DNA of 64,000 bases from an uncultured Gammaproteobacteria bacterium (GCA_964600575.1 CAZRJH010000003.1:17640-81639); one strand, 5' to 3'. Positions 43,198-64,000 are shown, counted from the stretch's first letter. Translations and numbers: made by a program. Notes: generated by a model from the sequence alone, not told the origin.

Positions 43198-43198
43198 T

Positions 43199-45653: not shown

Positions 45654-46817
45654 ATGGACAAGGTTGTAATTGTGATGCCGGCTTATAACGAATCTCAGAA
45701 TATTGCACTGATGATTCACGAACTTTTCGAAAACGAATTTCCTAAAATAGAGGGGGCCCAAATGCATTTGTTGGTGGTGGATGATTATTCTCCCGACGGA
45801 ACGGGGGATGTGGTCAAAAAACTAATGCCCAAATATAAAAATCTTCACATACTCCAAAAAAACAAAGAAGGTTTGGGCTGGGCTTACATCAGAGGTTTTG
45901 AATATGCGGTAGAGAAAATAAATGCCGATGCTGTTGTCGAAATGGATGCCGATTTTCAACATCCGCCAAGATTTGTTAAACCGATGGTTGATGCCTATAT
46001 CGACGGAGCAGACTATGTTATCGGCAGTAGATATATAAAAGGAGGATCTGTCCCAAAAGAATGGGCTTTTTTTAGAAAAGCCATTAGTGCACTAGGTAAT
46101 CTTTTTATACGTTTGGTTCTAATTAAACCCCAAATACACGATTTAACCACGGGCTTTCGGCTTACACGGGTTAAAGGAGTTTTGGATAAGATAAACCTAA
46201 ACGGTCTTATGGAACCGGAGAGATTTGCCTATAAAGTTGATCTTTTATACCAAAGCATAAAAAATTCTAAAAAAACCGTAGAAGTCCCATTGGAATTCGC
46301 GGCACGTACAAAAGAAAAATCCAAATTTAATACTAAAGAAATGGTTTCCACTTTTAAAATAGCGGTGATTTTGGGAATCAAAGACAAAATAAGGCTCATT
46401 AAGTTTGCAATAGTCGGTTTTGTCGGCTTTTTGGTTAACTATTTAAGCTTGGAATTTCTAAAAAGTATTGGTGTTTCCACCTACTTATCGGCACTGTTCG
46501 CAACGGAGGTTGCAATCGTCTCTAACTTTACATTCAATAATATCTGGACATTTAGGGATAAAGAAATTGTAAGAGTTAAAGACATAGTCATTCAATTTCT
46601 TAAATTTAATTTGTCATCGATGGTGGCCGTTATCGTACAACCTTTGATAGTTACTTTGGCAGTTAAGCTGGCCGGTGATACCCCGCTTGTTCATCTTGGA
46701 GGCCTGCTTTTTGCGCTTCTTTTCATAATAGTTCCATATAACTATGTGGTTTATAACTTGTTTATCTGGAAAACATGGAAGCTTCCAAAATTCAACGGGA
46801 AGAAAAAGGAACTCTAA
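45654..46817 (+). CDS. GT2 polyprenol-phosphate sugar synthase (DPM1-like) fused to a C-terminal GtrA-like membrane domain
   Basis: VVIVMPAYNE..VVDDYSPDGT..DADFQHPP (GT2-A); C-terminal FAIVGFVGFLVNYLSLEFL...ATEVAIVSNFTFNNIWTFRD (GtrA-like, 4 TM). Confidence 0.8.
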   Translation: MDKVVIVMPAYNESQNIALMIHELFENEFPKIEGAQMHLLVVDDYSPDGTGDVVKKLMPKYKNLHILQKNKEGLGWAYIRGFEYAVEKINADAVVEMDADFQHPPRFVKPMVDAYIDGADYVIGSRYIKGGSVPKEWAFFRKAISALGNLFIRLVLIKPQIHDLTTGFRLTRVKGVLDKINLNGLMEPERFAYKVDLLYQSIKNSKKTVEVPLEFAARTKEKSKFNTKEMVSTFKIAVILGIKDKIRLIKFAIVGFVGFLVNYLSLEFLKSIGVSTYLSALFATEVAIVSNFTFNNIWTFRDKEIVRVKDIVIQFLKFNLSSMVAVIVQPLIVTLAVKLAGDTPLVHLGGLLFALLFIIVPYNYVVYNLFIWKTWKLPKFNGKKKEL

Positions 46818-47202
46818 ACTTGTATCCGTAGTTAATTAATCCCTTGTCACCATCTTCATTTAACTTTCTGGTTACCATTTCCACACTTGTTCCTATTTCT
46901 ATAGGTTTTGTCGGGTCCTCCAAATCCGTTATCTGCGCAGTTATCATTGGCCCTTCTTCTAATTTAATTAACGCGACCTGGTATGGAGTATTTTCTTCAA
47001 AGCCGGCCGGAGCCTCAAAAACAACAGTTGATGAATAAATGGTCCCTTTTCCGCTAAAGTTGAAAGGTATCTTGGCTTCGCCGTGACAGTCAGGGCAGAC
47101 GTCTCTCGGTGGAAAAACTTTATGCCCCTCGTTACAGACTTCACCTACCAGTCGGTATCTTTGGCTTTTTAGACGCCAATGTCGTGGAATTTCATGACTC
47201 AT
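46792..47202 (-). CDS. DUF35-family Zn-ribbon plus OB-fold protein
   Basis: CNEGH...CPDCH zinc ribbon followed by an OB-fold-like C-terminus; 136 aa. Confidence 0.6.
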   Translation of the reverse strand: MSHEIPRHWRLKSQRYRLVGEVCNEGHKVFPPRDVCPDCHGEAKIPFNFSGKGTIYSSTVVFEAPAGFEENTPYQVALIKLEEGPMITAQITDLEDPTKPIEIGTSVEMVTRKLNEDGDKGLINYGYKFRVPFSSR

Positions 47203-47241
47203 ACATAAATTAGTCTATAGTGGCAGGGAAAAACCCACGAT

Positions 47242-48399
47242 TTAAAGAAATGGAGCCCAATTGCTAATCGGCATTACATTTTGAGATATAAAGCTGACTG
47301 CAAATAAATATACGGGTAAAAGCAGAAGTAAAAACACGGGTCTATATGCCTTTTTTGTAATTTGTTGGCCAAACGCAATAAACAAAAACGGAACAACGGG
47401 CAAAAAGTACCTTAATATATCCCTATGCGAAACAAAAAGTATAAAAAAGTAAAAAACTCCGGCAAAAGTTGCCAACTCAAATTCCTTCATTCTTATCAGT
47501 TTTAAAACTCCGACTGCACCAACCGCATATATAAACAATATTTCTTCTAACCAACTTGTACCAACCCAAGCAGAAGCATAATTAAAAATCTGAAAGGGGG
47601 GAAACCCCAAATGAATATTGTCCCCGGAATTAAAGTATGCCCAAAAGTCTCCCGTCCTAAAATAATAAAGTGAAAATACTGCGATCAGTGCTGTCGGGAT
47701 AAGGAAAATCGGAAGCGTTTTAGGTAGGTTAAAGTTTTTTAGTATATTTTTAAGTGATAGCTTCTCCATCTTTAAGTTTGGAATTGTCAAATAAATAAAA
47801 TAAGAAATAAAAAGTAAAATTCCGGCTGATTTAGTTAATTGTGCAATCATGCCCCAAATTCCCGAAGGCAAATAATTTTTATGTTTAAAGTAATAAACCG
47901 AAGCAATAATTGATGCCACAAAAAGCGGGTCTGCACTTCCCACAGTTCTAACAATCAACCAACGTGCCGGTAGTACCGAAAAAACAAATGTTAAAAAGTA
48001 TGCGGAACTTTCATCAAAATAGTCGTCGGCAAGCTTTTTGAAAAAATAAATTGATATAAACGAAGAAACTAAGGTTACGGAAAGCATTGCATAAGGAAAA
48101 TTGGTAACTAAGGAAAAAAGTCTGATCAAGGCGGGAAAGAGCGGAAAGTGAGCTGCATAATATTCAGAAGGTAGGGGGAATTGATAGTTGGCCTCGATCA
48201 ACGGCTTGTCATAAAAGGTCTTAGAAACAACCATATATAAAGGGCCGTCAAAATTAGAGACTATTGAAGCCATTCCCATATCCGGAATAGGGATTCCCCA
48301 AACAGAGGGTAAACGCAAAAAAAACGGTAGCCACAAAAGTACAACGGGAAAAAGAGTAAAAATCCCAATCGCTACAAACTCCTTTATTCTTTTTGGCAT
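47242..48399 (-). CDS. Polytopic membrane protein (385 aa), possible GT-C-like glycosyltransferase
   Basis: About 10 TM segments; no specific motif. Confidence 0.45.
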   Translation of the reverse strand: MPKRIKEFVAIGIFTLFPVVLLWLPFFLRLPSVWGIPIPDMGMASIVSNFDGPLYMVVSKTFYDKPLIEANYQFPLPSEYYAAHFPLFPALIRLFSLVTNFPYAMLSVTLVSSFISIYFFKKLADDYFDESSAYFLTFVFSVLPARWLIVRTVGSADPLFVASIIASVYYFKHKNYLPSGIWGMIAQLTKSAGILLFISYFIYLTIPNLKMEKLSLKNILKNFNLPKTLPIFLIPTALIAVFSLYYFRTGDFWAYFNSGDNIHLGFPPFQIFNYASAWVGTSWLEEILFIYAVGAVGVLKLIRMKEFELATFAGVFYFFILFVSHRDILRYFLPVVPFLFIAFGQQITKKAYRPVFLLLLLPVYLFAVSFISQNVMPISNWAPFL

Positions 48400-48470
48400 A
48401 CTTCTATGCCTAGCTTAACACATTCATAAGTAGTTTTTCTACAAAGCGGGATATATGCTAGACTTCGTAT

Positions 48471-49181
48471 GTGAAGGAAAAAATTAAAGAAATATCGGTA
48501 TTTTTACCTACTTTCAACGAAAGAGATAATATTTCCGATGTTGTCCTCAAAACAAAAACAGTTCTTTCCGGTGTGGCACAGACCTGGGAACTTATCGTTG
48601 TAAACGACGGTTCCAGCGACGGCACAAAAGAGGTTGTTTCCGGTTTATCAAAATCCGATAACCGTATAAAACTTATTAATCACGATCAAAATAAAGGCTA
48701 CGGAGCATCGCTTCGCTCGGGTTTTTACGGCGCTAAATACTCCTGGATAGCTTTTATAGATTCCGACGGACAATTTGATTTTTCCGAAATAGATAAGTTC
48801 ATAAGCAAGCAAAAAGAGACGGGTAGCGATATGGTAATCGGATACTATAAAAAAAGAAGAGTATCTCTTGCTAAAATTGTCACGAGCCGAATGTGGGAAT
48901 TTGCCGTATGGGCCCTTTTCGGGTTAAAAGTTAAAGATATAGATTGCGGATTTAAGTTCGTTTCCAAAAAGGTTATAGACGGAATTGCCAAACTGGAAAG
49001 CGAAAGGGGAGCGTTTATATCCAGCGAACTTTTAATAAAAGCCAAAAAGTCTGGATTTAAAATAGTCGAAGTGCCTGTTACTCATTATCCCAGGACAAAA
49101 GGTGCGGGAACAGGAAGAAGGCTTAACGTTATAATTAAAAGCTTTATAGATCTTGCGAGACTTTACAAAAACTTAAGATGA
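48471..49181 (+). CDS. GT2 glycosyltransferase (polyprenol-phosphate glycosyltransferase-like)
   Basis: ISVFLPTFNE..VVNDGSSDGT..DSDGQFD GT2-A motifs; 236 aa. Confidence 0.8.
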   Translation: MKEKIKEISVFLPTFNERDNISDVVLKTKTVLSGVAQTWELIVVNDGSSDGTKEVVSGLSKSDNRIKLINHDQNKGYGASLRSGFYGAKYSWIAFIDSDGQFDFSEIDKFISKQKETGSDMVIGYYKKRRVSLAKIVTSRMWEFAVWALFGLKVKDIDCGFKFVSKKVIDGIAKLESERGAFISSELLIKAKKSGFKIVEVPVTHYPRTKGAGTGRRLNVIIKSFIDLARLYKNLR

Positions 49182-50698
49182 AAAAAATATTTACAAATTT
49201 AAAAAAATGGAAACAGCAAAATCCTAAGGAATTTTGGATAATTACCATAATCTTGGTTCTGTCTGCGGTTTTCCGATTTTTTAAGATAGATCAATATATG
49301 ACTTTTTTGGGAGACGAAGGTCGCGATGTCATTATTGTCAAAAGGCTCTTAACCGAAGCCCATCCACCTTTGATAGGTCCGGGTACTTCCATCGGAGGAA
49401 TGTATTTAGGTCCGCTTTATTATTATATGATGGCACCTGCCCTACTTTTGGCGGGTTTTTCACCTATCGGCCCGGCCACAATGGTTGCCGTTTTGGGTGT
49501 AATTACGGTATTTTTTGTTTGGTATGTTGCGAGAGAATGGTTTGGTACCAAAGCGGCCGCAATTTCTGCGTTTCTTTACGCCATATCTCCGACTGTTATA
49601 ATTTTTTCGCGATCTTCCTGGAACCCCAACATTATGCCTTTCTTTTCTTTGCTTTCGGTTTATTCAATTTGGAGAGTTTGGAAACATAACGAATATAAGT
49701 GGCTTATTGTTCTTGGGATAGCATTTGCCTTTGTAATGCAGTCTCACTATTTGGGACTTTTACTTGCTCCTACATTATTTATTTATTGGCTTATTTCATA
49801 TTTAAAGAACAAAAAAGCGGGTATAGATAAAAAAATGTTCAAATATTCTTTGTTGGGATACGGTTTATTTTTACTCCTAATGAGTCCACTTTTGATTTTT
49901 GATTTAAGGCACGATTTTATGAACTCGAGAGCGATGTATCAATTTTTTACCGTAAGACAGACAACTGTTTCTGCAAAACCGTGGAGTGCGGTTCCAAAAG
50001 TTCCCGAAATATTTAAACAAATTAATACAAGTTTGGTGGGGGCAAAAAATAACCAACTTGCTTCTTTTTCTTCTTTGTTCATAGCGATAGGAATCTTATT
50101 TGTAATATTTAGAAAAGTTAAAAATAGGGAGCAGTATATTCTTTTGACATTGTGGTATCTTTTTGGCCTCATCGGGTTTGGCGTCTACAAACAATCCATC
50201 TATGATCATTATTTCGGTTTTGTGTTTGTAATTCCGTTTTTGTTTTTGGGTGGTTTTTTGAGTTCCTTACTAGACAAAAAAGGTTTTGTAAAATTTGCCT
50301 CTTTTTTGTTTTTGGCTTACTTGGTTTATATGAATCTTTTAGAAAACCCGCTTAGATTTTCTCCAAACAATCAATTGCAACGAAGTATAAATGTATCTCA
50401 AAAAGTTATCGACGAGTCGAGCGGAAACAAATTTAATCTGGCAGTGCTTGCCGAAAGAAATTACGAAGACGGGTATAGATACTTTTTAGAACTTAAGGGC
50501 GCAAAAGTCTTACATGCAGACAGATGGAACCAGGAAACTATATCAGATCAATTGTTTGTGATTTGCGAAATGGAAGAAAAAAAGTGCGACCCAACGCATT
50601 CTCCAAAAGCCGAGGTTGCAAATTTTGGCATGACTAAAATAGATAAGCAATGGAATGTTAACGGGGTTATAATATACCGTTTGTTGCATACAAAATGA
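49178..50698 (+). CDS. GT39 (PMT/ArnT-like) membrane glycosyltransferase-like; paralog 2 of 3
   Basis: DEGRDVIIVKRLL..LIGPGTSIGGMYLGPLYYYMMAP is colinear with the 10074 and 51668 products; ATGA overlap with the upstream GT2 gene. Confidence 0.65.
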   Translation: MKKIFTNLKKWKQQNPKEFWIITIILVLSAVFRFFKIDQYMTFLGDEGRDVIIVKRLLTEAHPPLIGPGTSIGGMYLGPLYYYMMAPALLLAGFSPIGPATMVAVLGVITVFFVWYVAREWFGTKAAAISAFLYAISPTVIIFSRSSWNPNIMPFFSLLSVYSIWRVWKHNEYKWLIVLGIAFAFVMQSHYLGLLLAPTLFIYWLISYLKNKKAGIDKKMFKYSLLGYGLFLLLMSPLLIFDLRHDFMNSRAMYQFFTVRQTTVSAKPWSAVPKVPEIFKQINTSLVGAKNNQLASFSSLFIAIGILFVIFRKVKNREQYILLTLWYLFGLIGFGVYKQSIYDHYFGFVFVIPFLFLGGFLSSLLDKKGFVKFASFLFLAYLVYMNLLENPLRFSPNNQLQRSINVSQKVIDESSGNKFNLAVLAERNYEDGYRYFLELKGAKVLHADRWNQETISDQLFVICEMEEKKCDPTHSPKAEVANFGMTKIDKQWNVNGVIIYRLLHTK

Positions 50699-51684
50699 AT
50701 TACGCAAAATCAAAAACCGTACTCAAAGAAATAACTAAAGCAAAAAAGATTCTGATAAATTGTCACAGAAGCCCGGATCCCGACAGTTGTGGCGGCGCTT
50801 TGGCAATGAGGAGAGTGCTTTTGGATATGGATAAAGAAGTTAAAGTTATTTGTCCGGACCCGATTGGGGACGATTCTGAATTTCTTAAAAATTCGGTTTT
50901 TGTAGAACAAATAGACTATGAAAATTTCGATTTTTCGGAATACGATCTTTTCTTGATTCAAGATTCATCGGAGTGGAGCCAAGTTACTGGTTTTGGTAAA
51001 GGAGAAGTAAAGGGTATCAAAACAATCGTAATCGATCATCACTACACTAACTCTGGTTTTGGCGACATAAACTTATTAGACGGCGACAGGAGCTCAACAT
51101 GCGAAGTTCTTTATAGAATTTTTTCCGATTGGAAGATAAGTATAAATTCCGAAGTTGCGGAAGACCTTTTGGCCGGTTTAATTTATGACACCTCCTCTCT
51201 CATGCACTCAAGTGCCGACGCAGAAACGGCAAAAACATATTCGCGGCTCATGGAGCTGGGGGCCGATAAAGACAAAATTATATTAAATATTTTTAGAAAT
51301 ATAAGTTTCGAAAATATAAAATTGATGGGAGAAATATTGAAAAATATGGATACGGATGAAGAAGCCGGATTTGTATATTCGGCCATACCTTACGAAACAT
51401 TTTCCACATACGGAACAACTTCGGGTGTCAAAAGTATGGCGGCAACGCTTTATGCGTCTTCGGTTAGAAACACTAATTATGGAATGATTATGGTCGAAGA
51501 AAAGAAAAATAATCTAAGCATAAGCTTGCGTGCAAAAGAGGGTTACGATATTTCAAAAGTTGCCGAAGTTTTAGGTGGCGGCGGACATAAACAGGCTGGA
51601 GCTGTATTGATGAGAAATGTAAAATTCGACAATGCAGTTATGAAAGCACTCGAAGCTGCGCGTAAATATGTCAGGAAAGCTTAA
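50695..51684 (+). CDS. nrnA: DHH-family phosphoesterase (NrnA-like oligoribonuclease/pAp phosphatase)
   Basis: HRSPDPDSCG, IDHH, GGGHKQAGA (DHHA1 GGGH) motifs; 329 aa. Confidence 0.75.
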   Translation: MNYAKSKTVLKEITKAKKILINCHRSPDPDSCGGALAMRRVLLDMDKEVKVICPDPIGDDSEFLKNSVFVEQIDYENFDFSEYDLFLIQDSSEWSQVTGFGKGEVKGIKTIVIDHHYTNSGFGDINLLDGDRSSTCEVLYRIFSDWKISINSEVAEDLLAGLIYDTSSLMHSSADAETAKTYSRLMELGADKDKIILNIFRNISFENIKLMGEILKNMDTDEEAGFVYSAIPYETFSTYGTTSGVKSMAATLYASSVRNTNYGMIMVEEKKNNLSISLRAKEGYDISKVAEVLGGGGHKQAGAVLMRNVKFDNAVMKALEAARKYVRKA

Positions 51685-53161: not shown

Positions 53162-53904
53162 AACCTTATTTAAGTGTAATAATTCCCGCTTACAACGAAG
53201 AATATAATCTAAGAACGGGTGTTCTGGGGTCGGTCTACGACTATTTAAAAAAACAAAAATATTCTTGGGAAATTCTTTTTGTAAACGACGGCTCAACGGA
53301 TAAAACTTTGCAAATAGCCGAGGACTTTGCAAAAGGACATCCAAAGTTTTTTGTAATAAACGAACCTCATAGGGGAAAAGGCGGTACCGTAATTTCCGGA
53401 GTTTTAAAAGCTAAAGGTGATGTGATAATTTTTACCGATACCGACCAGGCCACACCCATTGATCAGCTGGAGAAAATTCTTCCCAAATTCAAAGAAGGCT
53501 ATAGTGTTGTAATCGGTTCAAGAACCGGTAGAGAGGGTGCCCCTATCATCAGAAAAGTAATGGCTTACGGTTTTTCCATATTAAGACTACTAGTCCTAAG
53601 GCTTCCGTTTAAAGATACTCAGTGCGGTTTCAAAGCTTTCTCTCAAAAAGCCGCCAAAGATATTTTTGGCAAACTTCAGATTTTTTCTAATAAAACACAA
53701 ACTTCAGGGGCATCGGTAACGGCGGGTTTTGATTTGGAGGTTTTGTATATTGCCAGAAAACTGGGATTTAAGGTGGCGGAAGTTGCAGTGGATTGGCATC
53801 ACAAAGAGGGAACAAAAGTTGACCCGCTTAAAGACTCCCTTGAAGGCCTCAAGGGCCTTTTAATGGTTAGATTTAATTCCTTGACGGGAAAATACGGACT
53901 TTAG
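53158..53904 (+). CDS. GT2 glycosyltransferase (polyprenol-phosphate glycosyltransferase-like)
   Basis: LSVIIPAYNEE..FVNDGSTDKT..DTDQATP GT2-A motifs; ATGA overlap with the upstream gene. Confidence 0.8.
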   Translation: MKPYLSVIIPAYNEEYNLRTGVLGSVYDYLKKQKYSWEILFVNDGSTDKTLQIAEDFAKGHPKFFVINEPHRGKGGTVISGVLKAKGDVIIFTDTDQATPIDQLEKILPKFKEGYSVVIGSRTGREGAPIIRKVMAYGFSILRLLVLRLPFKDTQCGFKAFSQKAAKDIFGKLQIFSNKTQTSGASVTAGFDLEVLYIARKLGFKVAEVAVDWHHKEGTKVDPLKDSLEGLKGLLMVRFNSLTGKYGL

Positions 53905-53943
53905 TGGACTTGAGTGCTAGATTTGTATAATATATAGAAATCA

Positions 53944-54573: not shown

Positions 54574-54577
54574 ATTC

Positions 54578-54886
54578 ATGTTGACAGTAATACTTCTCAT
54601 ACTCGTAGTGTTTTGGTTTTTGGGCTACGGCCCTCTCACGGCACTAAAGATTCCGTTAATTATTCTGGGTAGGGTTAAAATAGATCTTTGGGAAATAATA
54701 ATATTTCTTTTGATAATTTGGATAATAGATCTACTCCCGCAACCTTTGCGTGAAATTGCAATCGTACTTATGATTATTTGGTTGTTGTCTGTTTTTGGAA
54801 TTATTGCAATCCCTATGTTTTCGAATGTAATAGTTATTGCGATCATCGTCGGTTTGGGGATTTATCTGCTTGGTTCAAGACACTGA
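54578..54886 (+). CDS. Small hydrophobic membrane protein (~102 aa)
   Basis: ATG 54578 follows the upstream stop; 3 TM segments; the track ORF begins earlier at 54482. Confidence 0.35.
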   Translation: MLTVILLILVVFWFLGYGPLTALKIPLIILGRVKIDLWEIIIFLLIIWIIDLLPQPLREIAIVLMIIWLLSVFGIIAIPMFSNVIVIAIIVGLGIYLLGSRH

Positions 54887-54912
54887 GTTTCTCCTTGTGC
54901 TAAAATTTCTCA

Positions 54913-56421: not shown

Positions 56422-56455
56422 TCGGCTAGATCTTTCTAGCCATTGATCCACCTAT

Positions 56456-58189: not shown

Positions 58190-59465
58190 AACTCATACTC
58201 GCGAAGTTGCATTATTTTTTCTACTTTTTGTCGGTTTTGTTGTAAGAATTTATTTGGTGGATAAGGTGGTTGTCGGGGATCTCATGAATTACGCCGAGTG
58301 GGGCGAACACTTGGTAAATAGGGGAGCTTACAACTTATATTTTACAAAAGATTGGTATTACTCCGTTCCTGTATACCCGCCTTTGTCTATTCTTACTTTT
58401 GCAGGGTCATATTGGCTAAACGAACATAGATATGTGTTGGCGGAACTTCATAATATTATTAAATTTCCTCCCGCATTTTTCATTATATATTTTTACAAAT
58501 GGGGTTATATATTTCTACTAAAGTTTTTACCGATAATTTGCGACTTGTTAATTTCGGTTGTTATTTTAAGACTCTCACTTAAGTTGGGATCAGGTTTTAA
58601 AAGAGCTTTTGCAGTCTCGGCTTTTTACTTATTAAATCCGATTACAATTTTTATATCGGGTGCATGGGGTCAAACGGATAGCATTGTGGCACTTTTGGGA
58701 ATACTCTCGTTTTTAAGTTTAGTAGATCGCAAATATCACATATCAATTCCTTTGATGTTTTTGGGGTTATATTTCAAACCCAGTTGGGCAATTCTCGGGA
58801 TTTTTTATTCATTTATTCTTCTTAAATCAAAACCTGATTGGAAAAAGGTAATATTGGGACTTTTTGTCACAGTGATTATTTTTGTAATATCAACAAAACC
58901 TTTTTCGGACGGTAACGTGTTTGCCTACGGCTGGAAACTTTTTAGGGAGCGCTATCCGCTACCGATAGGAATTGACGGCAAAGCTTCAATTTCGGCATTT
59001 AATTTTCAGACAATATTTTTCAAATTGGATATAGATTATTCTCACGAAAAACTTATAGGAATAACTTCGGGTAACTTAGGACTTATTTCTTACATAATTC
59101 TAAATTTGGTTTCCTTTAACATCTACAATAAGTCCGGAAACAAGCTTTTTGGAATGCTTGCAGGCATATTCACAATTGGTTTTGGCAGCTTCCTGTTTAT
59201 GGCAACAATGTTGGAAAGATATTTTTTCCCTGCCTTTATACCTTTGTTTGTTCTATTGGCTGTAAAACCGAAACTTGTTTGGAACTCGGTTGTTATTAAT
59301 GTAATTCTGGCTCTTAACATTCTGTACTCCTTTTACAGAAGAGGGTCGGACGAAATCGGCCGGCCGTTTGTAAACAACAATTTTCTCGTTATACGCATAC
59401 TCTCTGTAGTTCAAACTTTGGCGTTTTTAAACTTCGTAAAAAAGATCTCAACAGGCCGTTCTTAG
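58161..59465 (+). CDS. Polytopic membrane protein, possible GT87/DUF2029-like mannosyltransferase
   Basis: Many TM segments; ATG 58161 (MKSIKNWL) preferred over the upstream track start at 58137. Confidence 0.45.
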   Translation, partial: EMKSIKNWLKTHTREVALFFLLFVGFVVRIYLVDKVVVGDLMNYAEWGEHLVNRGAYNLYFTKDWYYSVPVYPPLSILTFAGSYWLNEHRYVLAELHNIIKFPPAFFIIYFYKWGYIFLLKFLPIICDLLISVVILRLSLKLGSGFKRAFAVSAFYLLNPITIFISGAWGQTDSIVALLGILSFLSLVDRKYHISIPLMFLGLYFKPSWAILGIFYSFILLKSKPDWKKVILGLFVTVIIFVISTKPFSDGNVFAYGWKLFRERYPLPIGIDGKASISAFNFQTIFFKLDIDYSHEKLIGITSGNLGLISYIILNLVSFNIYNKSGNKLFGMLAGIFTIGFGSFLFMATMLERYFFPAFIPLFVLLAVKPKLVWNSVVINVILALNILYSFYRRGSDEIGRPFVNNNFLVIRILSVVQTLAFLNFVKKISTGRS

Positions 59466-59484
59466 CCTCTTTCTGTGCTACAAT

Positions 59485-60978
59485 TTGAGAGTGATTGAGA
59501 CCCAGGACCACCTGGACCCGACCGGCGAAATAACGATCGAAACAGTACGAGAGAGAACCGTAAAAGGAATTGTTGCTTTAACGGGTAGATATTTTGTTCT
59601 TTACCTTATAACCATTTTTGCTCAAGGTTTGTTGGGAGCTTTTTTAACAACAGCTCAGTTTGGTATTTTCGGTATAGTCTCGGCAATCATTAACTTTTTA
59701 GTTTATTTTTCGGATATCGGATTGGCTGCTTCGCTTATACAGAAAAGACAAAAATTAGAGGAAGACGATCTAGCCACAACATTCACCGTCCAGCAGATAC
59801 TGGTGTTTGTTTTGGTTATCTCTCTCTTTTTACTTTCCCCGACTATTAAAAGGGTTTACGGTTTGGATCAGGCTTCTATTTATCTGCTTTACGCTTTGGG
59901 GGCTTCTTTTGTTATGTCTTCTTTAAAAACAATTCCCTCCGTGCTTTTGGAGAGGGGGTTAAGGTTCGAGATATTGGCCATAACAAATATCTTAGAAAAT
60001 CTTATATATAACTTTATTCTGGTTTATTTAGCTTGGAAAGGTTTTGGGATAACTAGCTTTACATTTGCCGTACTGGCAAGGGGTGTTGTTGGTTTAGCAA
60101 CTCTTTATCTTTTTAGACCTTGGAAACCCAAACTAAAAATCTCACGAAAATCGCTAGCGAATCTTCTTAGGTTTGGTATTCCTTATCAAATAAACACTTT
60201 TATTGCCGTTCTAAAAGATGACGGACTAACGATTGTTTTAGGAAAAGTATTGGGTGTTGATGCACTCGGGATTTTGGTTTGGGCCCAAAAATGGATTCAA
60301 ATACCTTTGAGAGTCGTTTTGGACAATGTAACACGGGTAACATTCCCGGCTTTCTCAAGGTTGCAGGACGACAAAAAGAATCTGGAAAGAACAGTTACAA
60401 GATCAATATTTTTTATTACCTTTTTAGTGTTTCCGGCTGTTACTGGAATTGTTATTATTGCACCCGTGCTTTTTGATGCCATTCCTAAATATCATCAATG
60501 GATGCCGGCAGTTATTCCGATGATTTTATTATCTATAAACGTCATTATGGCTTCGGTTTCAACTCAGCTTACCAATCTACTCAACTCGATTGGAAAAATA
60601 AAAGTAACATCGGTGTTTATGGTTATGTGGACGGTGCTTACATGGGCACTTGTGCCATATTTAGCAATTAAATATGGAGTAAACGGGGCTTCTTTTGGGT
60701 ATGCATTGGTAGGATTATCGTCGGTGGTCGTGATATTTATTACCAAAAAATTTGTTGATTTCTCATTATCGGAAAGCATTCTTAGACCGTTTTTGGCAAG
60801 CCTAGCAATGGCGGCGGTGCTTATTGTAATCAGAAACCTTGTACCCCACAATCTTACTAACCTTGGATTGTTGATTGCTGCGGGGGCAACTACATATATA
60901 ATATCTATATTAATTTTAGTAGGACAAAGTTTAATAGAAGATGCAAAAAAAGGAATTAAATCACTCATTACTAAGTAG
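59485..60978 (+). CDS. Wzx-like oligosaccharide flippase (MOP/polysaccharide biosynthesis family)
   Basis: 497 aa, ~12-14 TM, typical PST-family charged-residue pattern. Confidence 0.7.
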   Translation: MRVIETQDHLDPTGEITIETVRERTVKGIVALTGRYFVLYLITIFAQGLLGAFLTTAQFGIFGIVSAIINFLVYFSDIGLAASLIQKRQKLEEDDLATTFTVQQILVFVLVISLFLLSPTIKRVYGLDQASIYLLYALGASFVMSSLKTIPSVLLERGLRFEILAITNILENLIYNFILVYLAWKGFGITSFTFAVLARGVVGLATLYLFRPWKPKLKISRKSLANLLRFGIPYQINTFIAVLKDDGLTIVLGKVLGVDALGILVWAQKWIQIPLRVVLDNVTRVTFPAFSRLQDDKKNLERTVTRSIFFITFLVFPAVTGIVIIAPVLFDAIPKYHQWMPAVIPMILLSINVIMASVSTQLTNLLNSIGKIKVTSVFMVMWTVLTWALVPYLAIKYGVNGASFGYALVGLSSVVVIFITKKFVDFSLSESILRPFLASLAMAAVLIVIRNLVPHNLTNLGLLIAAGATTYIISILILVGQSLIEDAKKGIKSLITK

Positions 60979-61825
60979 CATTTGCCCGATTTGCGGGAAG
61001 AAAGACCTGTCAAAATATTGGGCGATGCCCGGATACGCACTTATGACTTGCAACAGCTGCTCCATGGTATGGGACCCTTTCCCCCCCGATGACGAAAAGG
61101 GCCAATATGATAAGTCTTACTTCGAAAACGATAACCCTAAAGGTGGTTATACCAATTACTTCGAGGGCATGAAAATTAACAAGCGGACTTTTTACGACCG
61201 TCTGAATAAAATCGAAAAACGTTTTGGAAAAGGGAAACTTTTGGATGTAGGTTGTGCCTTGGGCGACTGTTTAACCGAAGCTGTTAAGTTGGGTTGGAAA
61301 GATCCTCAAGGCCTAGAAGTCTCATCGTTTGCTGTAGAAAAAGCCAGAAAGAAAGGGCTAAACGTAAGACGTGGGACATTAGACGATGTTACTTTTAAAC
61401 CCGGAACTTTTGATGTAGTAACTTATCAGGATGTAATAGAACATGTTAAAAATCCTTTAGCGGAGCTTAAAAAGGTCAATAAAATTCTTAAAAAAGACGG
61501 TGTGGTATTTTTGGTTACGCCTGATGTTGGTGGTTTTTGGAAAAAACTCTTGGGATCTTTGTGGTATCACTATAAACCCCGTGAACACATAATGTATTTT
61601 TCCCAAAAAAGCATTGCTCTCGCACTAAAAAAATCGGGATACAAAAATATTGTTACAAAAAGAACATATCATGTTCTAAGTCTGGAGTATATTCTTAGCA
61701 GATTAAGATATTATCTTCCCAACTTTTTCGATTTTCTTCTAAAAATTTCAAAACTTCTGGGAGTTTCGGAAATGTCTTTTAAATCTTACACAGGTGAGAT
61801 AGAGGCTTGGGGTCAAAAAGTATGA
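60941..61825 (+). CDS. Class I SAM-dependent methyltransferase with N-terminal Zn-ribbon
   Basis: CPICG...CNSC zinc ribbon; motif I LLDVGCALGD; motif II/III DVVTYQDVIEH, KDGVVFL. Confidence 0.75.
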   Translation: MQKKELNHSLLSSICPICGKKDLSKYWAMPGYALMTCNSCSMVWDPFPPDDEKGQYDKSYFENDNPKGGYTNYFEGMKINKRTFYDRLNKIEKRFGKGKLLDVGCALGDCLTEAVKLGWKDPQGLEVSSFAVEKARKKGLNVRRGTLDDVTFKPGTFDVVTYQDVIEHVKNPLAELKKVNKILKKDGVVFLVTPDVGGFWKKLLGSLWYHYKPREHIMYFSQKSIALALKKSGYKNIVTKRTYHVLSLEYILSRLRYYLPNFFDFLLKISKLLGVSEMSFKSYTGEIEAWGQKV

Positions 61826-63468
61826 AAGATAGATCGGCTAAGTGGTTATTAATCCTTCTCGGAAGTTTTTCCTGGTGTCTAACAATGTTCAAAAGCGGGT
61901 TTCCCGGAAAGTACGGACTCGGTTTTTGGGGTGCAAACGGTCACGACGGAATATGGCATATAGCCCTTTCTTCAACTCTGGCTAAAAGTTCCTTCTCTAT
62001 GCCCGTTTTCTCGGGAGAATTTATTAAAAATTATCATTTGGGTTTTGATTTTTTAATGGCAATAATACACAACTTAAGCGGCATATCTTTCCTTGATATA
62101 TATTTTAGAGTTATTCCTTTGTTGCTATCAGTTCTTCTTGGACTTATTACATACAAATTTGTTTTTGAATGGTCGGGGAGTTCCAAGTCGGCTTTATGGT
62201 CACTTTTCTTTGTTTATTTCGGCGGCGGTTTTGCGTTTTTGCTGGGGAAAGGTGAGTCAACATTTTGGTCGCAACAGGCAATCTCAACACTTATTAATCC
62301 CCCGTTTGCGCTATCACTGCTCCTCATTATTTTGGGAATGATTCTTGTCAGAAAGGCGTATTTAAGGCCTAGCCTGGTTAATCTAGTATTACCCGTTTTG
62401 GTTTTTGGGACGCTGATAGAAGTTAAAGCTTATGCTGGCTTACTTTCTTTAGTAGCCCTTTTTGCAGCGGGAGGATATGCCTACATCAAAGATAAAAACA
62501 AAAGCCCTCTTTTGATTGCGTTGGGATCAATGCTTCTTAGCTTAATATTGTTAAAAATTGCGAACTTTGAATCTTCGGGTGTTTTTATTTGGCAACCGTT
62601 TTGGTTTTTAGAATCTATGTTGGGCCTATCCGACAGGTTAGATTGGCAACGGTTTTATTCGGCCGTCTCAACTTATAAATCCGGACATATTTTTATAAAG
62701 TTGATACCTGCTTATATTTTTGCATTTGCCATATTCCTGATAGGAAATATGGGCACTAGAGTAACAAGTTTGTTGTATCTTTTAAAAAATCTTAAAAAAT
62801 TTTCCTGGGAACAAATTTTTATCTATACAATACTTTTTGCGGGAATTGCCATTCCAACATTGTTTGTGCAGTCAGGAACCCCTTGGAATTCTATACAGTT
62901 TTTTTATTACTCTTTATTCTTTTCGGCGATTCTGGCCGGTATTTCCATGCAGCACATAAAGCCAAAGTTTTTGTCTGTCTTGATTGTACTTTTAACTATT
63001 CCTACAACTTATCGGGAATTAAAAGTCGTCTATCTTCCACAGAGACCGCCCGCCGTGTTATCTTCGGCCGAACTCGATGCCTTAACTTTTCTAAAAAACC
63101 AACCTGAGGGAATCGTATTAACTTACCCATTTAGCGAAATTGAATCAAAAGAAGCGGAGAAATATCCACCAAGACCTCTCTATTTGTACACATCAACCGC
63201 ATATGTTTCCGCGTTTTCGGAAAAAACAACATATCTAGAAGACACTATAAATTTAAATATCACAGGATTCGACTGGGTAAACCGCAAAAATAAACTAATG
63301 AGTTGGTATACCGAAAATAATCAGGACAAGGCAAGAAAATTTTTAACTGAAAATAATATTAAGTACATTTATTGGGTTAAACCCCAAAGGGCTCTACTTG
63401 GCGAAGGAAATTTGGGACTTTCAAACATCTTTGAAAACAAGACGGTTGTTGTCTACAAAGTCGATTAG
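61807..63468 (+). CDS. Polytopic membrane protein (553 aa), probable glycan-assembly membrane component
   Basis: More than 12 TM segments; WGANGHDGIWH in the first loop; no specific family motif. Confidence 0.45.
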   Translation: MGSKSMKDRSAKWLLILLGSFSWCLTMFKSGFPGKYGLGFWGANGHDGIWHIALSSTLAKSSFSMPVFSGEFIKNYHLGFDFLMAIIHNLSGISFLDIYFRVIPLLLSVLLGLITYKFVFEWSGSSKSALWSLFFVYFGGGFAFLLGKGESTFWSQQAISTLINPPFALSLLLIILGMILVRKAYLRPSLVNLVLPVLVFGTLIEVKAYAGLLSLVALFAAGGYAYIKDKNKSPLLIALGSMLLSLILLKIANFESSGVFIWQPFWFLESMLGLSDRLDWQRFYSAVSTYKSGHIFIKLIPAYIFAFAIFLIGNMGTRVTSLLYLLKNLKKFSWEQIFIYTILFAGIAIPTLFVQSGTPWNSIQFFYYSLFFSAILAGISMQHIKPKFLSVLIVLLTIPTTYRELKVVYLPQRPPAVLSSAELDALTFLKNQPEGIVLTYPFSEIESKEAEKYPPRPLYLYTSTAYVSAFSEKTTYLEDTINLNITGFDWVNRKNKLMSWYTENNQDKARKFLTENNIKYIYWVKPQRALLGEGNLGLSNIFENKTVVVYKVD

Positions 63469-63495
63469 CTTCAGATTTAATGCTACAATTTGGGA

Positions 63496-64000
63496 ATGGC
63501 TGTGAAAATTTCGGTGGTAATAAATACAAGAAATGCGGAAAGCTTGCTTGCCGAGGCAATAACCTCCGTTAAAAAGATTGCAGACGAAGTTGTTGTTTGT
63601 GATATGGAATCGGAAGATGGAACCTTAGACATTGCCAAAAAACTGGGAGCAAAAATTTACAAACATAAAAAAGAGGGATATGTGGAACCTGCCCGTAATT
63701 TTGCCATAAATAAGGCGACAGGTGATTGGGTATTGATTCTCGATGCTGATGAAAAATTAACCCCTCAACTTTTATCGCTGCTTAAAGATAAAGCCTTAAA
63801 TGGAGAAGCCGACTTTTACAGACTTCCCAGGAAAAATCTAATTTTCGGAAAATGGATGAAACATTCAAGGTGGTGGCCAGATTACAATATCAGGTTTTTC
63901 AGAAAAGGTTTTGTAACCTGGAACGAGGTTATTCACTCGGTTCCCATGACAACAGGAAAAGGAGAAGATATTTCGGACTCAGAAGAAAACGCAATTATTC
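63496..64000 (+). CDS. GT2 glycosyltransferase, 5' partial (runs off the window end)
   Basis: Translation MAVKISVVINTRNAESLL..VVCDMESEDGT..ILDADEKL gives GT2-A motifs; no stop before position 64000. Confidence 0.7.
   Translation, partial: MAVKISVVINTRNAESLLAEAITSVKKIADEVVVCDMESEDGTLDIAKKLGAKIYKHKKEGYVEPARNFAINKATGDWVLILDADEKLTPQLLSLLKDKALNGEADFYRLPRKNLIFGKWMKHSRWWPDYNIRFFRKGFVTWNEVIHSVPMTTGKGEDISDSEENAII

What the first reader, a model, noticed from the sequence alone, without database searches (positions are those of the whole stretch)
45654..64000. Very dense extracytoplasmic glycosylation machinery: 3 polyprenol-P-sugar synthases plus at least 7 GT-C-like membrane transferases, a flippase and a methyltransferase
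Within ~18 kb there are three GT2 Dpm1-like synthases (one fused to a GtrA-like 4-TM domain), three paralogous GT39/PMT-like proteins (49178, 51668, plus 10074 elsewhere in the window), an ArnT/PMT-like protein with the DEAxY loop, at least three more large polytopic proteins with acidic first loops (HDDLQ, GHDG), a Wzx flippase, a Zn-ribbon SAM methyltransferase and another GT2 at the window end. Nucleotide-sugar supply genes (galE, galU, rmlBCD) and secreted LTD, CAP and PT-linker surface proteins sit directly upstream. This arrangement resembles lipid-linked-donor protein or S-layer O-glycosylation as in Actinobacteria PMT or archaeal Agl systems, at unusually high density for a small genome. 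The Pro/Thr-rich linkers of the adjacent surface proteins are plausible acceptor sites.
Basis: partly seen in the sequence, partly recalled or inferred. Interest (0 to 1): 0.55.

Follow-up and report, generated by a model that had tools for sequence, protein, structure and literature searches.

The report
Conserved Microgenomates surface-glycan assembly island
A small-genome, uncultivated (Microgenomates/CPR) bacterium carries a large island, conserved across its lineage, of membrane enzymes that build sugars onto its cell surface from lipid-linked donors; one of them, always next to the flippase, belongs to an undescribed family that looks like an oligosaccharyltransferase.

Summary
In 45654-64000, 13 of about 17 genes are glycosylation genes. 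They comprise three GT2 enzymes whose best solved relatives are polyprenyl-phosphate-sugar synthases (one is a full-length match to archaeal type-III DPMS with a GtrA-like membrane domain). They also include seven GT-C-fold membrane transferases, a Wzx-family flippase, a Zn-ribbon methyltransferase and one more GT2. None of the polytopic proteins looks like a transporter.

The island runs at least 10 kb past the window end, adding 5 GT2, 1 GT4 and 3 PMT_2 genes. It is syntenic in 56 of 56 species-level Microgenomates loci examined, so it is lineage-typical, not peculiar to this genome.

[quoted passage not shown] It surrounds a conserved core of Wzx, a Pfam-less STT3-like GT-C (61822-63468) and six cytoplasmic glycosyltransferases. 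That core probably makes, flips and then transfers or polymerises a lipid-linked oligosaccharide.

The acceptor is not established. This is a new variant of a known kind and moderately interesting.

The parts
45654..46817 (+). GT2 fused to a 4-TM GtrA-like domain. It is a type-III DPMS-like polyprenyl-phosphate-hexose synthase and possibly flips its own product.
   Evidence: Pfam GT2 1.2e-26 and GtrA_DPMS_TM 8.8e-19. Full-length match to P. furiosus DPMS 5mlz at 6.4e-46, residues 3-353 against 24-358. PMC12992685 proposes that PfDPMS may flip its product. It lies next to the 385-aa GT-C in L086 and L087 as well.
47242..48399 (-). 385-aa GT-C-fold transferase with no Pfam hit, divergently paired with the DPMS-like gene. 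Loop 1 carries the invariant motif SN(Y/F)DGPLY.
   Evidence: 2061 homologues at about 60% identity; some sources name them 'Gpi18-like mannosyltransferase' or give PF13231. Alignment A3 has 76% mean column identity and invariant D51. AF2 pLDDT 80, pTM 0.85. The top 34 Foldseek PDB hits are all GT-C or GT-C-like: STT3 3e-4, ALG12 4e-4, ArnT 1e-3, PimE TMt 0.52.
48471..49181 (+). Soluble-type GT2 resembling a polyprenyl-phosphate-sugar synthase, translationally coupled to the next gene. It is the GT-A half of a GT-A/GT-C pair.
   Evidence: Pfam GT2 1.9e-26. Best PDB relatives are ArnC 4e-19, DPMS 1e-15 and GtrB 3e-15. There is a 4-bp overlap with 49178. The same pair is present in L086 and L087.
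49178..50698 (+). PMT_2-family GT-C, with GDEGRD after TM1.
   Evidence: PMT_2 1.2e-16, 61.7 bits against a cutoff of 26.1. PMT is at 22.4, just under its 22.7 cutoff. TIGR03663 (Agl23) 3.5e-12 is below its cutoff. Paralogue of 51668 (3e-27) and 10074 (1e-9).
51668..53161 (+). PMT_2-family GT-C, with YDQGRD after TM1. It is the GT-C half of a second GT-A/GT-C pair.
   Evidence: PMT_2 1.3e-10. Paralogue of 10074 at 4e-37. There is a 4-bp overlap with the GT2 at 53158.
53158..53904 (+). Soluble-type GT2 resembling a polyprenyl-phosphate-sugar synthase. It belongs to the conserved part of the island.
   Evidence: Pfam GT2 1.5e-30. Best PDB relatives are GtrB sll0501 1.9e-16, DPMS 1.2e-14 and ArnC 1.9e-11. 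Top NCBIfam hit is PgfS 1.7e-23, below its cutoff. Present in 42 of 56 related loci at 58% identity.
54913..56421 (+). PMT/PMT_2-family GT-C with a DE motif (FADEAIY) in loop 1.
   Evidence: PMT_2 1.8e-10; PMT 5.2e-7, 29.9 bits against a cutoff of 22.7. Present in 46 of 56 related loci at 51% identity.
56471..58189 (+). YfhO/PTPS_related-type GT-C, with MHDDLQ in loop 1.
   Evidence: PTPS_related 5.6e-7, 28.8 against a cutoff of 26.4; YfhO 1.1e-3. The orthologue in L084 carries PF09586 YfhO. Present in 54 of 56 loci.
58164..59465 (+). GT87/PIG-V-like GT-C with invariant GD in loop 1. It is an accessory gene.
   Evidence: 128 homologues, named 'Gpi18-like mannosyltransferase' by JGI. 4 of 30 family members hit GT87, 3 hit Alg6_Alg8 and 1 hits PMT_2. 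Present in 13 of 56 loci. Its fold was not modelled.
59491..60978 (+). Wzx-type (MOP superfamily) flippase.
   Evidence: Polysacc_synt_3 8.1e-55 and Polysacc_synt 8.6e-28. At least 11 hydrophobic segments. Sits immediately upstream of the 61822 family in 56 of 56 loci at 54% identity.
60941..61825 (+). SAM-dependent methyltransferase with an N-terminal Zn ribbon. Probably methylates a sugar.
   Evidence: Methyltransf_23 2.3e-24. CPICGKK...CNSC is in the sequence. A homologue lies within 10 kb in 20 of 56 loci.
61822..63468 (+). Pfam-less GT-C with an STT3-like fold, modelled with 11 TM and a C-terminal extracytoplasmic alpha/beta domain. It is the candidate transferase or polymerase for the Wzx-flipped lipid-linked glycan.
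   Evidence: No Pfam or NCBIfam hit even at E<=5. 1236 homologues, all labelled 'hypothetical'. 1568 clusters at 50% identity. Found in 277 species genomes. AF2 pLDDT 86, pTM 0.88. Foldseek: STT3 4e-9, AglB 7.5e-7, DPY19 1.6e-6, PglB 1.3e-5, ArnT 4e-4. All 64 invariant non-TM residues lie in predicted outside segments.
63496..64000 (+). GT2, cut by the window end (298 aa in full). It is the first of six conserved cytoplasmic glycosyltransferases.
   Evidence: GT2 1.1e-22. The full gene is in L002 11675-12571. Best PDB relative is GmaR 7.6e-14, with DPMS only 4.8e-4. Present in 56 of 56 loci.
10074..11546 (+). Third paralogue of the 49178/51668 PMT_2 GT-C, lying outside the island.
   Evidence: BLASTP 4e-37 to 51668. 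PMT_2 2.4e-5, 25.0 bits, just below the 26.1 cutoff.
38030..44688 (+). Nucleotide-sugar supply genes: GalE-like epimerase (38030-39019), NTP-transferase (40330-41262), RmlB-like (41272-43197), RmlC (43199-43786) and RmlD (43783-44688). A CAP-domain gene (39051-40049) is interleaved.
   Evidence: Pfam results. The same Rml and CAP neighbourhood is seen in L087.
36794..37585 (+). Candidate acceptor protein: signal peptide, LTD domain, a roughly 50-residue Pro/Thr/Ser linker and a C-terminal TM anchor.
   Evidence: LTD 2.1e-10, CAP 1.6e-18 and LytR_C 3.9e-9. The linkers are read directly from the translations. The acceptor role is inference only.

Best explanation
The region is the left two-thirds of a 28-kb-plus cell-surface glycan assembly island that is conserved across Microgenomates (CPR/Patescibacteria). 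It works by lipid-linked donors and has two layers.

**(1) Conserved core (inferred pathway).**
- Six cytoplasmic glycosyltransferases (five GT2, three of them rhamnosyltransferase-like, and one GT4) lie just past the window end. Fed by the adjacent RmlBCD, GalE-like and NTP-transferase genes, they build an oligosaccharide on a polyprenyl phosphate carrier.
- Wzx (59491) flips it.
- The methyltransferase modifies a sugar.

**(2) Decoration or elongation layer.**
- Three DPMS/GtrB/ArnC-like GT2 make polyprenyl-P-monosaccharides. One is fused to a GtrA-type domain; two are soluble and translationally coupled to a GT-C.
- The paired or neighbouring GT-C enzymes (47242, 49178, 51668, 54913, 56471, 58164, and more downstream) add these sugars outside the cell. 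[quoted passage not shown]

**Shown and inferred.** Shown are gene families, folds, topology, pairing and synteny. Inferred are donor identity, order of steps and the acceptor. My commitment on the acceptor is a conserved envelope glycoconjugate, meaning a wall- or membrane-anchored glycopolymer, with surface proteins bearing Pro/Thr linkers as secondary or alternative targets.
For: **Family and fold assignments.**

**Synthase-type GT2.** The three GT2 in the region have ArnC, DPMS and GtrB as best solved relatives. The window-end GT2 does not.

**GT-A/GT-C pairing.** 48471/49178 and 51668/53158 overlap by 4 bp, and 45654 and 47242 are divergent neighbours. All three pairings recur in L086 and L087. 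Adjacent GT-A/GT-C pairs using GtrA- or Wzx-type flippases are the hallmark described in PMC8035078.

**Synteny of the core.**
- Wzx is upstream in 56 of 56 loci.
- Downstream, the GT2 and GT4 genes are present in 49-56 of 56.
- The YfhO-like gene is present in 54 of 56 and PMT_2 54913 in 46 of 56.
- The other PMT_2 paralogues are variable (15-27 of 56).
- Pfam-labelled neighbourhoods in two distant genomes show the same order.

**Physical link.** One homologue, P0400 (1639 aa), joins Wzx to this GT-C in a single protein.

**Conservation.** Wzx is 54% identical and the GT-C 47% identical across species. By the argument in PMC10920833, this suggests a constant donor and acceptor.

**Active-site side.** All invariant polar residues of 61822 map to the predicted outer face. 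Predicted inside loops are 31% K/R with no invariant residue.

**Sugar hints.** Rhamnosyltransferase-like hits for three downstream GT2 sit beside rml genes.
Against: - No priming phosphoglycosyltransferase (PF00953 or PF02397) was seen in the scanned window genes or within 10 kb in L084 and L085. The initiation step is therefore unaccounted for.
- No chain-length regulator or LCP catalytic domain was found.
- Wzx next to a GT-C can also mean flipping of a single-sugar lipid, as with GacK/GacL (PMC8035078). The 'flipped oligosaccharide' step is therefore not forced.
- 61822 has no detectable sequence relation to any characterised enzyme.
- All NCBIfam matches are far below their equivalog cutoffs, so sugar specificities are unknown.
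- Nothing in the data identifies the acceptor.
Confidence: 0.6

Rival explanations
1. One reading: the island is mainly a protein O-glycosylation system. Polyprenyl-P-sugars are transferred by PMT-like GT-C enzymes onto Ser/Thr in the Pro/Thr-rich linkers of secreted or anchored proteins (LTD, CAP, LytR_C) or of an S-layer protein.
For: - 54913 passes the PMT model and has the DE loop motif.
- Pro/Thr/Ser linkers occur in 25374, 36794 and 39051.
- A CAP gene is also adjacent in L087.
- The top NCBIfam hit of 45654 and 53158 is PgfS.
- In streptococci, GtrB with PgtC2, or the Pgf system, glycosylates Ser/Thr-rich disordered regions of LytR, PrsA and PBP1a (PMC12041528).
Against: - PMT_2 also covers enzymes that act on teichoic acids and rhamnan (PMC8035078).
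- At least 11 distinct GT-C, a Wzx and six cytoplasmic glycosyltransferases are more than known O-mannosylation or IDR glycosylation needs.
- The PgfS matches are far below cutoff (76 and 83 bits against 500).
- No acceptor evidence exists.
Confidence: 0.25
2. An Agl/Pgl-like general glycosylation pathway. 61822 is a divergent oligosaccharyltransferase that moves a Wzx-flipped oligosaccharide en bloc onto proteins (N- or O-linked), as AglB, PglB or STT3 do.
For: - The best structural matches are STT3, AglB and PglB, with TM-score 0.49-0.56 normalised to the query.
- The C-terminal domain weakly matches the AglB-S2 C-terminal domain, E 0.12-0.2.
- The cluster composition (several GT2, a methyltransferase, a Wzx-like flippase, extra GT-C) mirrors the Haloferax agl genes as I know them.
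- No phosphoglycosyltransferase is nearby, which would fit a monophosphate-linked glycan.
Against: - There is no PF02516 or STT3 HMM hit.
- There is no WWDYG motif, and loop 1 has HD rather than DxD.
- STT3 chains are over-represented in the PDB, which may inflate the ranking.
- 41 of 150 family representatives carry an N-terminal secreted domain weakly like DUF3863. This may hint at a carbohydrate substrate rather than a protein one.
Confidence: 0.1
3. The polytopic proteins are transporters or unrelated membrane proteins, and the clustering is incidental.
For: Three of them have no Pfam hit, and profile-profile links between them are weak.
Against: - Foldseek places transporters only at E>0.17 with probability <0.25, whereas GT-C enzymes score probability 0.93-1.0.
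- Four pass GT-C-clan Pfam gathering scores.
- Gene order is conserved in 56 of 56 loci.
Confidence: 0.02

Closest known systems
Multi-component (three-component) transmembrane glycosylation systems of Gram-positive bacteria: CsbB/GtcA/YfhO, GtlA/GtlB, CsdAB/CD/EF and GacI/J/K/L (PMC8035078)
   Same: A GT-A polyprenyl-P-sugar synthase, a GtrA- or Wzx-type flippase and a GT-C (PMT_2, YfhO or no Pfam domain) that transfers the sugar outside the membrane. The GT-A and GT-C genes are adjacent, and several pairs share a genome.
   Different: Here at least 11 GT-C and three synthases are packed into one conserved island of a genome of roughly 1 Mb. Two synthases lack any TM segment and one is an archaeal-type DPMS fusion. 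The acceptor polymer is unknown, and there are no teichoic-acid genes nearby.
Mycobacterial/corynebacterial LM, LAM and arabinogalactan assembly (PimE, MptA/B/C, EmbA/B/C, AftA-D with Ppm1 and DPA donors); from my own knowledge plus the PDB hits
   Same: Many different GT-C enzymes extend a glycan outside the membrane from polyprenyl-P-sugars, after a cytoplasmic start by GT-A and GT-B enzymes. The PimE, AftA, AftB and Emb folds are among the structural matches.
   Different: There is no sequence-level relation. The genes are clustered and Wzx-linked here, whereas in Actinobacteria they are largely dispersed and no Wzx is involved.
Oligosaccharyltransferases STT3/AglB/PglB (CAZy GT66)
   Same: 61822 has a GT-C fold with a long first external loop, a C-terminal extracytoplasmic alpha/beta domain and a neighbouring flippase and glycosyltransferase genes.
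   Different: There is no STT3 HMM hit, no WWDYG, HD instead of DxD, and about 11 rather than 13 TM in my topology reading.
Wzx/Wzy-dependent polymerases, especially CAZy clan GT-C3 (GT122-124) (PMC10920833)
   Same: The gene lies next to wzx. A long conserved loop sits near the N-terminus with invariant Asp and His, plus invariant Arg residues on the outer face. Conservation is as high as for the polymerase of enterobacterial common antigen, which has a constant substrate.
   Different: Membership could not be tested because no GT122-124 models are available here. There are no Wzy, EpsG or O-antigen-ligase Pfam hits. Wzy proteins normally lack a 140-residue C-terminal soluble domain.
Streptococcal glycosylation of Ser/Thr-rich disordered regions (GtrB/PgtC2, PgfS/PgfM) (PMC12041528)
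   Same: A GtrB-type GT2 and a GT-C act on extracytoplasmic low-complexity linkers of membrane-anchored proteins, including LytR. Similar linkers are present in the window.
   Different: Those systems use one or two GT-C enzymes and transfer a single sugar. The matches here are sub-threshold.

Membership tests
GT-C fold glycosyltransferase superfamily (seven proteins in 45654-64000) | Polytopic membrane protein with 8-14 TM segments | tested here: met
   6-8 strong hydrophobic segments per protein by a crude Kyte-Doolittle scan. The AF2 models show about 11 TM helices for 61822 and a similar number for 47242.
GT-C fold glycosyltransferase superfamily (seven proteins in 45654-64000) | Conserved acidic residue(s) in the first extracytoplasmic loop after TM1 | tested here: met
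   GDEGRD (49178), YDQGRD (51668), FADEAIY (54913), MHDDLQ (56471), GD (58164, invariant G38 D39), NYDGP (47242 family, invariant D51; NFDGP in the window protein) and GHDG (61822, invariant D42).
GT-C fold glycosyltransferase superfamily (seven proteins in 45654-64000) | HMM match to a GT-C family at the curated threshold | tested here: inconclusive
   Met for 49178, 51668, 54913 (PMT_2) and 56456 (PTPS_related). Not met for 47242, 58164 and 61822. For 58164 the support is only transitive, through family members.
GT-C fold glycosyltransferase superfamily (seven proteins in 45654-64000) | Three-dimensional GT-C fold | tested here: met
   Met for the two proteins modelled, 61822 and 47242. All high-probability Foldseek PDB matches are GT-C enzymes. 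58164 and the PMT_2 proteins were not modelled.
GT-C fold glycosyltransferase superfamily (seven proteins in 45654-64000) | Uses a polyprenyl-phosphate-linked sugar donor | not testable with these tools
   Needs biochemistry.
Protein O-mannosyltransferase (GT39, PF02366) | PF02366 at gathering score, DE motif in loop 1, and a protein Ser/Thr acceptor | tested here: inconclusive
   54913 scores 29.9 bits against a 22.7 cutoff and has DE, but its PMT_2 score is higher (41.7). 49178 scores 22.4, below the cutoff. 51668 has no hit. No sequence match to solved PMTs. The acceptor cannot be tested.
Oligosaccharyltransferase STT3/AglB/PglB (GT66), for 61822-63468 | STT3 HMM (PF02516) match | tested here: not met
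   No Pfam hit even at E<=5. No PDB sequence hit with the family profile.
Oligosaccharyltransferase STT3/AglB/PglB (GT66), for 61822-63468 | WWDYG motif in the C-terminal domain and DxD in loop 1 | tested here: not met
   The consensus and the invariant-column list of A1 contain no WWD. Loop 1 has invariant H41-D42.
Oligosaccharyltransferase STT3/AglB/PglB (GT66), for 61822-63468 | STT3-like fold with a C-terminal extracytoplasmic domain | tested here: met
   Foldseek gives STT3 4.4e-9, AglB 7.5e-7 and PglB 1.3e-5, with TM-score 0.49-0.56 normalised to the query. The AglB-S2 C-terminal domain matches at E 0.12-0.2.
Polyprenyl-phosphate-sugar synthases (Dpm1/GtrB/ArnC-type GT2), for 45654, 48471 and 53158 | Closest characterised relatives are polyprenyl-P-sugar synthases | tested here: met
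   45654: DPMS 6.4e-46, full length. 48471: ArnC 4.4e-19, DPMS, GtrB. 53158: GtrB 1.9e-16, DPMS, ArnC. The control GT2 at the window end has GmaR as its best match.
Polyprenyl-phosphate-sugar synthases (Dpm1/GtrB/ArnC-type GT2), for 45654, 48471 and 53158 | NCBIfam equivalog cutoff for a named enzyme, and a membrane anchor | tested here: not met
   All NCBIfam scores are far below their cutoffs. 48471 and 53158 have no hydrophobic segment. Only 45654 has TM helices.
Multi-component transmembrane glycosylation system | A GT-A synthase, a GtrA/Wzx flippase and a GT-C, with adjacent GT-A/GT-C genes | tested here: met
   The pairs recur in L086 and L087. The definition is taken from PMC8035078.
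Wzx/Wzy-dependent polysaccharide pathway | Wzx flippase | tested here: met
   Polysacc_synt_3 8.1e-55. NCBIfam MOP flippase 5e-44, below its cutoff.
Wzx/Wzy-dependent polysaccharide pathway | An initiating phosphoglycosyltransferase, a recognisable Wzy and a chain-length regulator in the cluster | tested here: not met
   None appears among the scanned window genes or in the Pfam-labelled neighbourhoods L001, L002, L084 and L085. Not every small ORF was scanned, and such genes may lie elsewhere in the genome.
Archaeal Agl pathway | AglB, and Agl-specific equivalogs (AglJ, Agl23, DolP-hexose transferase) | tested here: not met
   There are only sub-threshold matches: AglJ at 45-57 bits against a 325 cutoff, Agl23 at 46 against 126, and DPhHxTase at up to 61 against 375.

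The most novel reading that the evidence does not exclude
The 61822-63468 family is Pfam-less and found in at least 277 species-level genomes and 1568 sequence clusters. It is always the gene after wzx, and in one sequence it is fused to Wzx. On this reading it is a new GT-C family that takes a Wzx-flipped lipid-linked oligosaccharide and transfers or polymerises it. That would make a 'Microgenomates common glycan'. In the boldest version it is a bacterial oligosaccharyltransferase of independent origin that glycosylates surface proteins, so CPR bacteria would have a general protein glycosylation system analogous to archaeal Agl.
Probability: 0.3. Interest if true: 0.75.

Novelty: new variant of a known kind. 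Interest (0 to 1): 0.55.

Why it matters
CPR/Patescibacteria are mostly uncultivated episymbionts whose surface chemistry is essentially unknown, although the surface mediates host attachment. Complete Woesebacteria genomes are 0.81-0.92 Mb. Spending roughly 3% of such a genome on one syntenic island with at least 10 GT-C and 11 GT-A/B enzymes implies a structurally complex, conserved and probably essential surface glycoconjugate.

The island offers concrete handles:
- a conserved antigen for enrichment or imaging of Microgenomates;
- two strongly conserved GT-C families without Pfam coverage for structural and biochemical work;
- a natural test of whether STT3-like enzymes outside GT66 handle flipped oligosaccharides.

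My searches of the held literature found no description of this cluster.

Tried and rejected
**Searches that found nothing.**
- A look-up of the 553-aa TTG-start version of 61807 found nothing. The 548-aa ATG start at 61822 is the one on record.
- Family-profile searches of the PDB for the 61822 and 58164 families gave no hits.
- Single-sequence PDB searches for 54913, 49178 and 56471 gave nothing usable.
- Profile-profile comparisons among the three Pfam-less families and with 54913 and 56471 were weak or null. The best was A1 against A2 over the N-terminal module, E 3.6e-4, probability 37%. I therefore do not claim these families are related by sequence.
- Rfam and tRNA scans of the window were empty.
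- Promoter and terminator scans were at or below the shuffle expectation, so operon structure rests on gene overlaps only.
The taxon is inferred from the names of records that carry homologues.
- Literature searches for CPR/Patescibacteria combined with GT-C, PMT or glycosylation found nothing specific.

**Readings rejected.**
- Transporters, on fold evidence.
- A canonical STT3 oligosaccharyltransferase, because the motifs and HMM match are absent.
- A strain-specific oddity, because the island is conserved across the lineage.
- MurJ identity for the flippase, because the match is to Polysacc_synt_3 and not to MVIN.

Full report
**1. What is in the sequence**

ORF listing shows a tightly packed gene array from 45654 to the window end, almost all on the plus strand. 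Many junctions overlap by 4-38 bp: 49178/49181, 50695/50698, 51668/51684, 53158/53161, 58164/58189, 60941/60978 and 61822/61825.

Pfam assigns the following:
- GT2 to 45654-46817 (with a C-terminal GtrA_DPMS_TM domain), 48471-49181, 53158-53904 and the truncated 63496-64000.
- PMT_2 above its gathering score to 49178-50698, 51668-53161 and 54913-56421. The last also passes the PMT model.
- PTPS_related, with a weak YfhO match, to 56456/56471-58189.
- Polysacc_synt_3 (Wzx type, 8e-55) to 59485/59491-60978.
- Methyltransf_23 to 60941-61825.

Three polytopic proteins have no Pfam hit: 47242-48399 on the minus strand, 58137/58164-59465 and 61807/61822-63468.

Four genes are not recognisable glycosylation genes: 46792-47202 minus strand (ChsH2/DUF35-like), 50695-51684 (DHH/DHHA1), 53944-54573 (a secreted protein with no Pfam hit) and a 102-aa three-TM ORF at 54578-54886.

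The loop motifs it quoted (DEAxY, HDDLQ, GHDG) are in the translations.

**2. Are the unassigned membrane proteins glycosyltransferases or transporters?**

- *61822 family.* It has 1236 homologues, all called 'hypothetical', still above 50% identity at rank 120. An AlphaFold2 model from a 33-sequence alignment has pLDDT 86 and pTM 0.88. Foldseek against the PDB returns STT3 (4e-9 to 6e-7), AglB, the DPY19 C-mannosyltransferase, PglB, AftA, ArnT and Pmt4. Transporters start at E>0.2 with probability at most 0.21.
- *47242 family.* It has 2061 homologues at about 60% identity and 76% mean column identity. The model has pLDDT 80. Its first 34 Foldseek hits are all GT-C or GT-C-like: STT3, ALG12, ArnT, GPI-MT-I, ALG9, PIG-U, Pmt4 and PimE.
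- *58164 family.* It has 128 homologues, and JGI names them 'Gpi18-like mannosyltransferase'. 4 of 30 members hit GT87, 3 hit Alg6_Alg8 and 1 hits PMT_2. This protein is GT-C by transitive homology only; its fold was not modelled.

Every candidate has an acidic residue 10-30 residues after TM1, and that residue is invariant in the three family alignments. The transporter alternative is therefore rejected.

**3. The three 'Dpm1-like' GT2**

- 45654 aligns over its whole length, membrane domain included, with Pyrococcus furiosus type-III DPMS (5mlz, 6.4e-46).
- 48471 and 53158 have ArnC, DPMS and GtrB as their best solved relatives.
- As a control, the GT2 at the window end has GmaR as its best match and DPMS only at 5e-4.

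All NCBIfam matches (PgfS, ArnC, AglJ, DolP-hexose transferase, PpgS) are far below the equivalog cutoffs. The enzyme class is therefore supported but the sugar is not. 48471 and 53158 have no hydrophobic segment. PMC8035078 describes soluble GT-A enzymes that work with a separate membrane partner.

**4. The island is larger than the window and is conserved**

Exact-sequence look-ups place the region on a 67,775-bp Logan contig that continues downstream. The next 10 kb adds five GT2, one GT4 and three more PMT_2 genes. Counting the window and this extension, there are 11 GT-C genes (including 10074) and at least 12 GT-A/B genes.

A scan of one genome per species with the 61822-family alignment found relatives in 277 genomes. 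The 80 loci kept are Woesebacteria, Blackburnbacteria, Amesbacteria and other Microgenomates. Many third-party MAG titles read 'uncultured Gammaproteobacteria', which I take to be mislabelled.

In the 56 loci with full 10-kb flanks:
- Wzx is immediately upstream in 56 of 56.
- The downstream GT2, GT2, GT2, GT4, GT2 and GT2 genes are present in 56, 49, 56, 55, 51 and 50.
- The YfhO-like gene is present in 54, PMT_2 54913 in 46 and GT2 53158 in 42.
- The other PMT_2 paralogues, the GT87-like gene and the methyltransferase are variable (13-27).

Pfam-labelled neighbourhoods from two distant assemblies show the same order. The left part (TrmD, GT2-GtrA, 385-aa GT-C, GT2, PMT_2, DHH, PMT_2, GT2) recurs in two others, once with Rml and CAP genes beside it.

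Related loci have a median of 5 GT-C and 6 GT-A/B genes per 21.6 kb. The density is real but characteristic of the lineage.

**5. How it most likely works**

The three synthase-type GT2 are each adjacent to a GT-C. Two pairs are translationally coupled and one is divergent. [quoted passage not shown] That part of the mechanism is well supported by homology.

The conserved core suggests more: an oligosaccharide assembled in the cytoplasm, flipped, and then handled by the GT-C encoded by the next gene. The evidence is:
- invariant adjacency in 56 of 56 loci;
- one 1639-aa homologue that joins Wzx, an extra domain and this GT-C in a single protein;
- unusually high conservation of both Wzx (54% identity) and the GT-C (47%), which by the reasoning of PMC10920833 points to a constant donor and acceptor;
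- a topology in which all 64 invariant non-TM residues lie in predicted outside segments, including H41, D42, H46, D76, E145, D271, R272, R408 and R451, while predicted inside loops are 31% Lys/Arg.

Three of the downstream GT2 give sub-threshold rhamnosyltransferase matches and sit beside rmlBCD-like genes. This hints at a rhamnose-containing glycan.

Weak points:
- no priming phosphoglycosyltransferase, chain-length regulator or LCP catalytic domain was seen in the genes scanned;
- Wzx next to a GT-C can also serve single-sugar transfer, as with GacK/GacL.

**6. The acceptor**

Nothing in the data identifies it.

The streptococcal precedent, including LytR, is apt (PMC12041528).

Against a purely protein target, the number of distinct GT-C enzymes, the flippase and six cytoplasmic transferases fit better with a complex wall- or membrane-anchored glycopolymer. 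That is the logic of Gram-positive secondary wall polymers or mycobacterial lipoglycans. In addition, 41 of the 150 best representative clusters of the 61822 family carry an N-terminal secreted domain of about 400-450 residues with a weak DUF3863 match. I recall, without having checked, that DUF3863 belongs with carbohydrate-processing folds.

I rank the glycopolymer first, protein O-glycosylation second and an Agl-like en bloc oligosaccharyltransferase third.

**7. Comparison with known systems**

- As a system, it works like multi-component transmembrane glycosylation combined with a Wzx-dependent step.
- 61822 is not a member of GT66. The fold is met, but the STT3 HMM, WWDYG and DxD are not.
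- It shares with CAZy clan GT-C3 polymerases a long conserved N-proximal loop with Asp and His plus outer-face Arg residues (PMC10920833). Membership could not be tested here.
- The PMT_2 proteins cannot be called GT39 on this evidence.

**8. Verdict**

This is a new variant of a known kind: an exceptionally multiplied, lineage-conserved lipid-linked glycosylation island containing at least two strongly conserved GT-C families without Pfam coverage.

I found no description of it in the held literature. Interest is moderate (0.55). It would rise substantially if the 61822 family proved to be a new oligosaccharide-transferring enzyme.

Noticed in passing
window 26000-32000: A block with GC 0.45-0.50, against 0.36-0.43 elsewhere. 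It encodes secreted, lipoprotein-like and 8-TM proteins with no Pfam hit: 26718-28847 (709 aa, Cys-rich), 28778-29791, 29808-30494, 30734-31327 and 31324-31743. It may be foreign DNA. No tRNA lies nearby.
   Followed up: partly
window 50695-51684: A DHH/DHHA1 (NrnA-like) gene is translationally coupled between two PMT_2 genes. The same embedding is seen in L085, L086 and L087. Its conserved position inside a glycosylation operon is unexplained.
   Followed up: partly
window 46792-47202 (-): A ChsH2/DUF35-like OB-fold and Zn-ribbon protein lies between the DPMS-like gene and the 385-aa GT-C. It is absent at this position in L086 and L087. As far as I know, archaeal DUF35 proteins scaffold thiolase and HMG-CoA synthase in isoprenoid synthesis. 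A link to the lipid carrier is speculative.
   Followed up: no
window 41272-43197: The RmlB-like dehydratase is 641 aa. The C-terminal 320 residues or so have no Pfam match. The orthologous gene in L087 encodes 335 aa.
   Followed up: partly
P0363, P0384, P0400; L023 and L024 about 7.9-9.5 kb: 41 of the 150 best representative clusters of the 61822 family carry an N-terminal secreted domain of about 400-450 aa with a weak DUF3863 match (3e-4; PDB 3lm3 0.026). P0400 (1639 aa) joins Wzx, this domain and the GT-C. The domain is absent from the window.
   Followed up: partly
window 8673-9446 and 16676-17470: Two Pfam-less cytoplasmic paralogues (33% identity, 4e-42). One sits before the HAD and PMT_2-like genes at 9487-11546 and the other after the GT1 and GT28-like genes at 13441-16672.
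   Followed up: partly
window 22546-23064: A VTT/DedA-domain membrane protein (1.1e-17). As far as I know, DedA proteins have been implicated in recycling undecaprenyl phosphate, which would matter for a carrier-hungry island.
   Followed up: no
window 54578-54886: A 102-aa three-TM ORF with no Pfam hit lies two genes after the soluble GT2 at 53158. It might be a GacJ-like membrane partner of a soluble GT-A (PMC8035078). This was not tested.
   Followed up: no
L004, L011, L015, L016 and others: Many third-party MAG records titled 'uncultured Gammaproteobacteria' carry this Microgenomates-type gene cluster. The titles look like mislabels.
   Followed up: no
window 13441-16672: Further glycosyltransferases lie outside the flagged region: a GT1/UDPGT-like gene at 13441-14616 and a Glyco_trans_1_3/GT28-like gene at 15554-16672, with an EamA transporter at 12555-13418 on the minus strand.
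   Followed up: no
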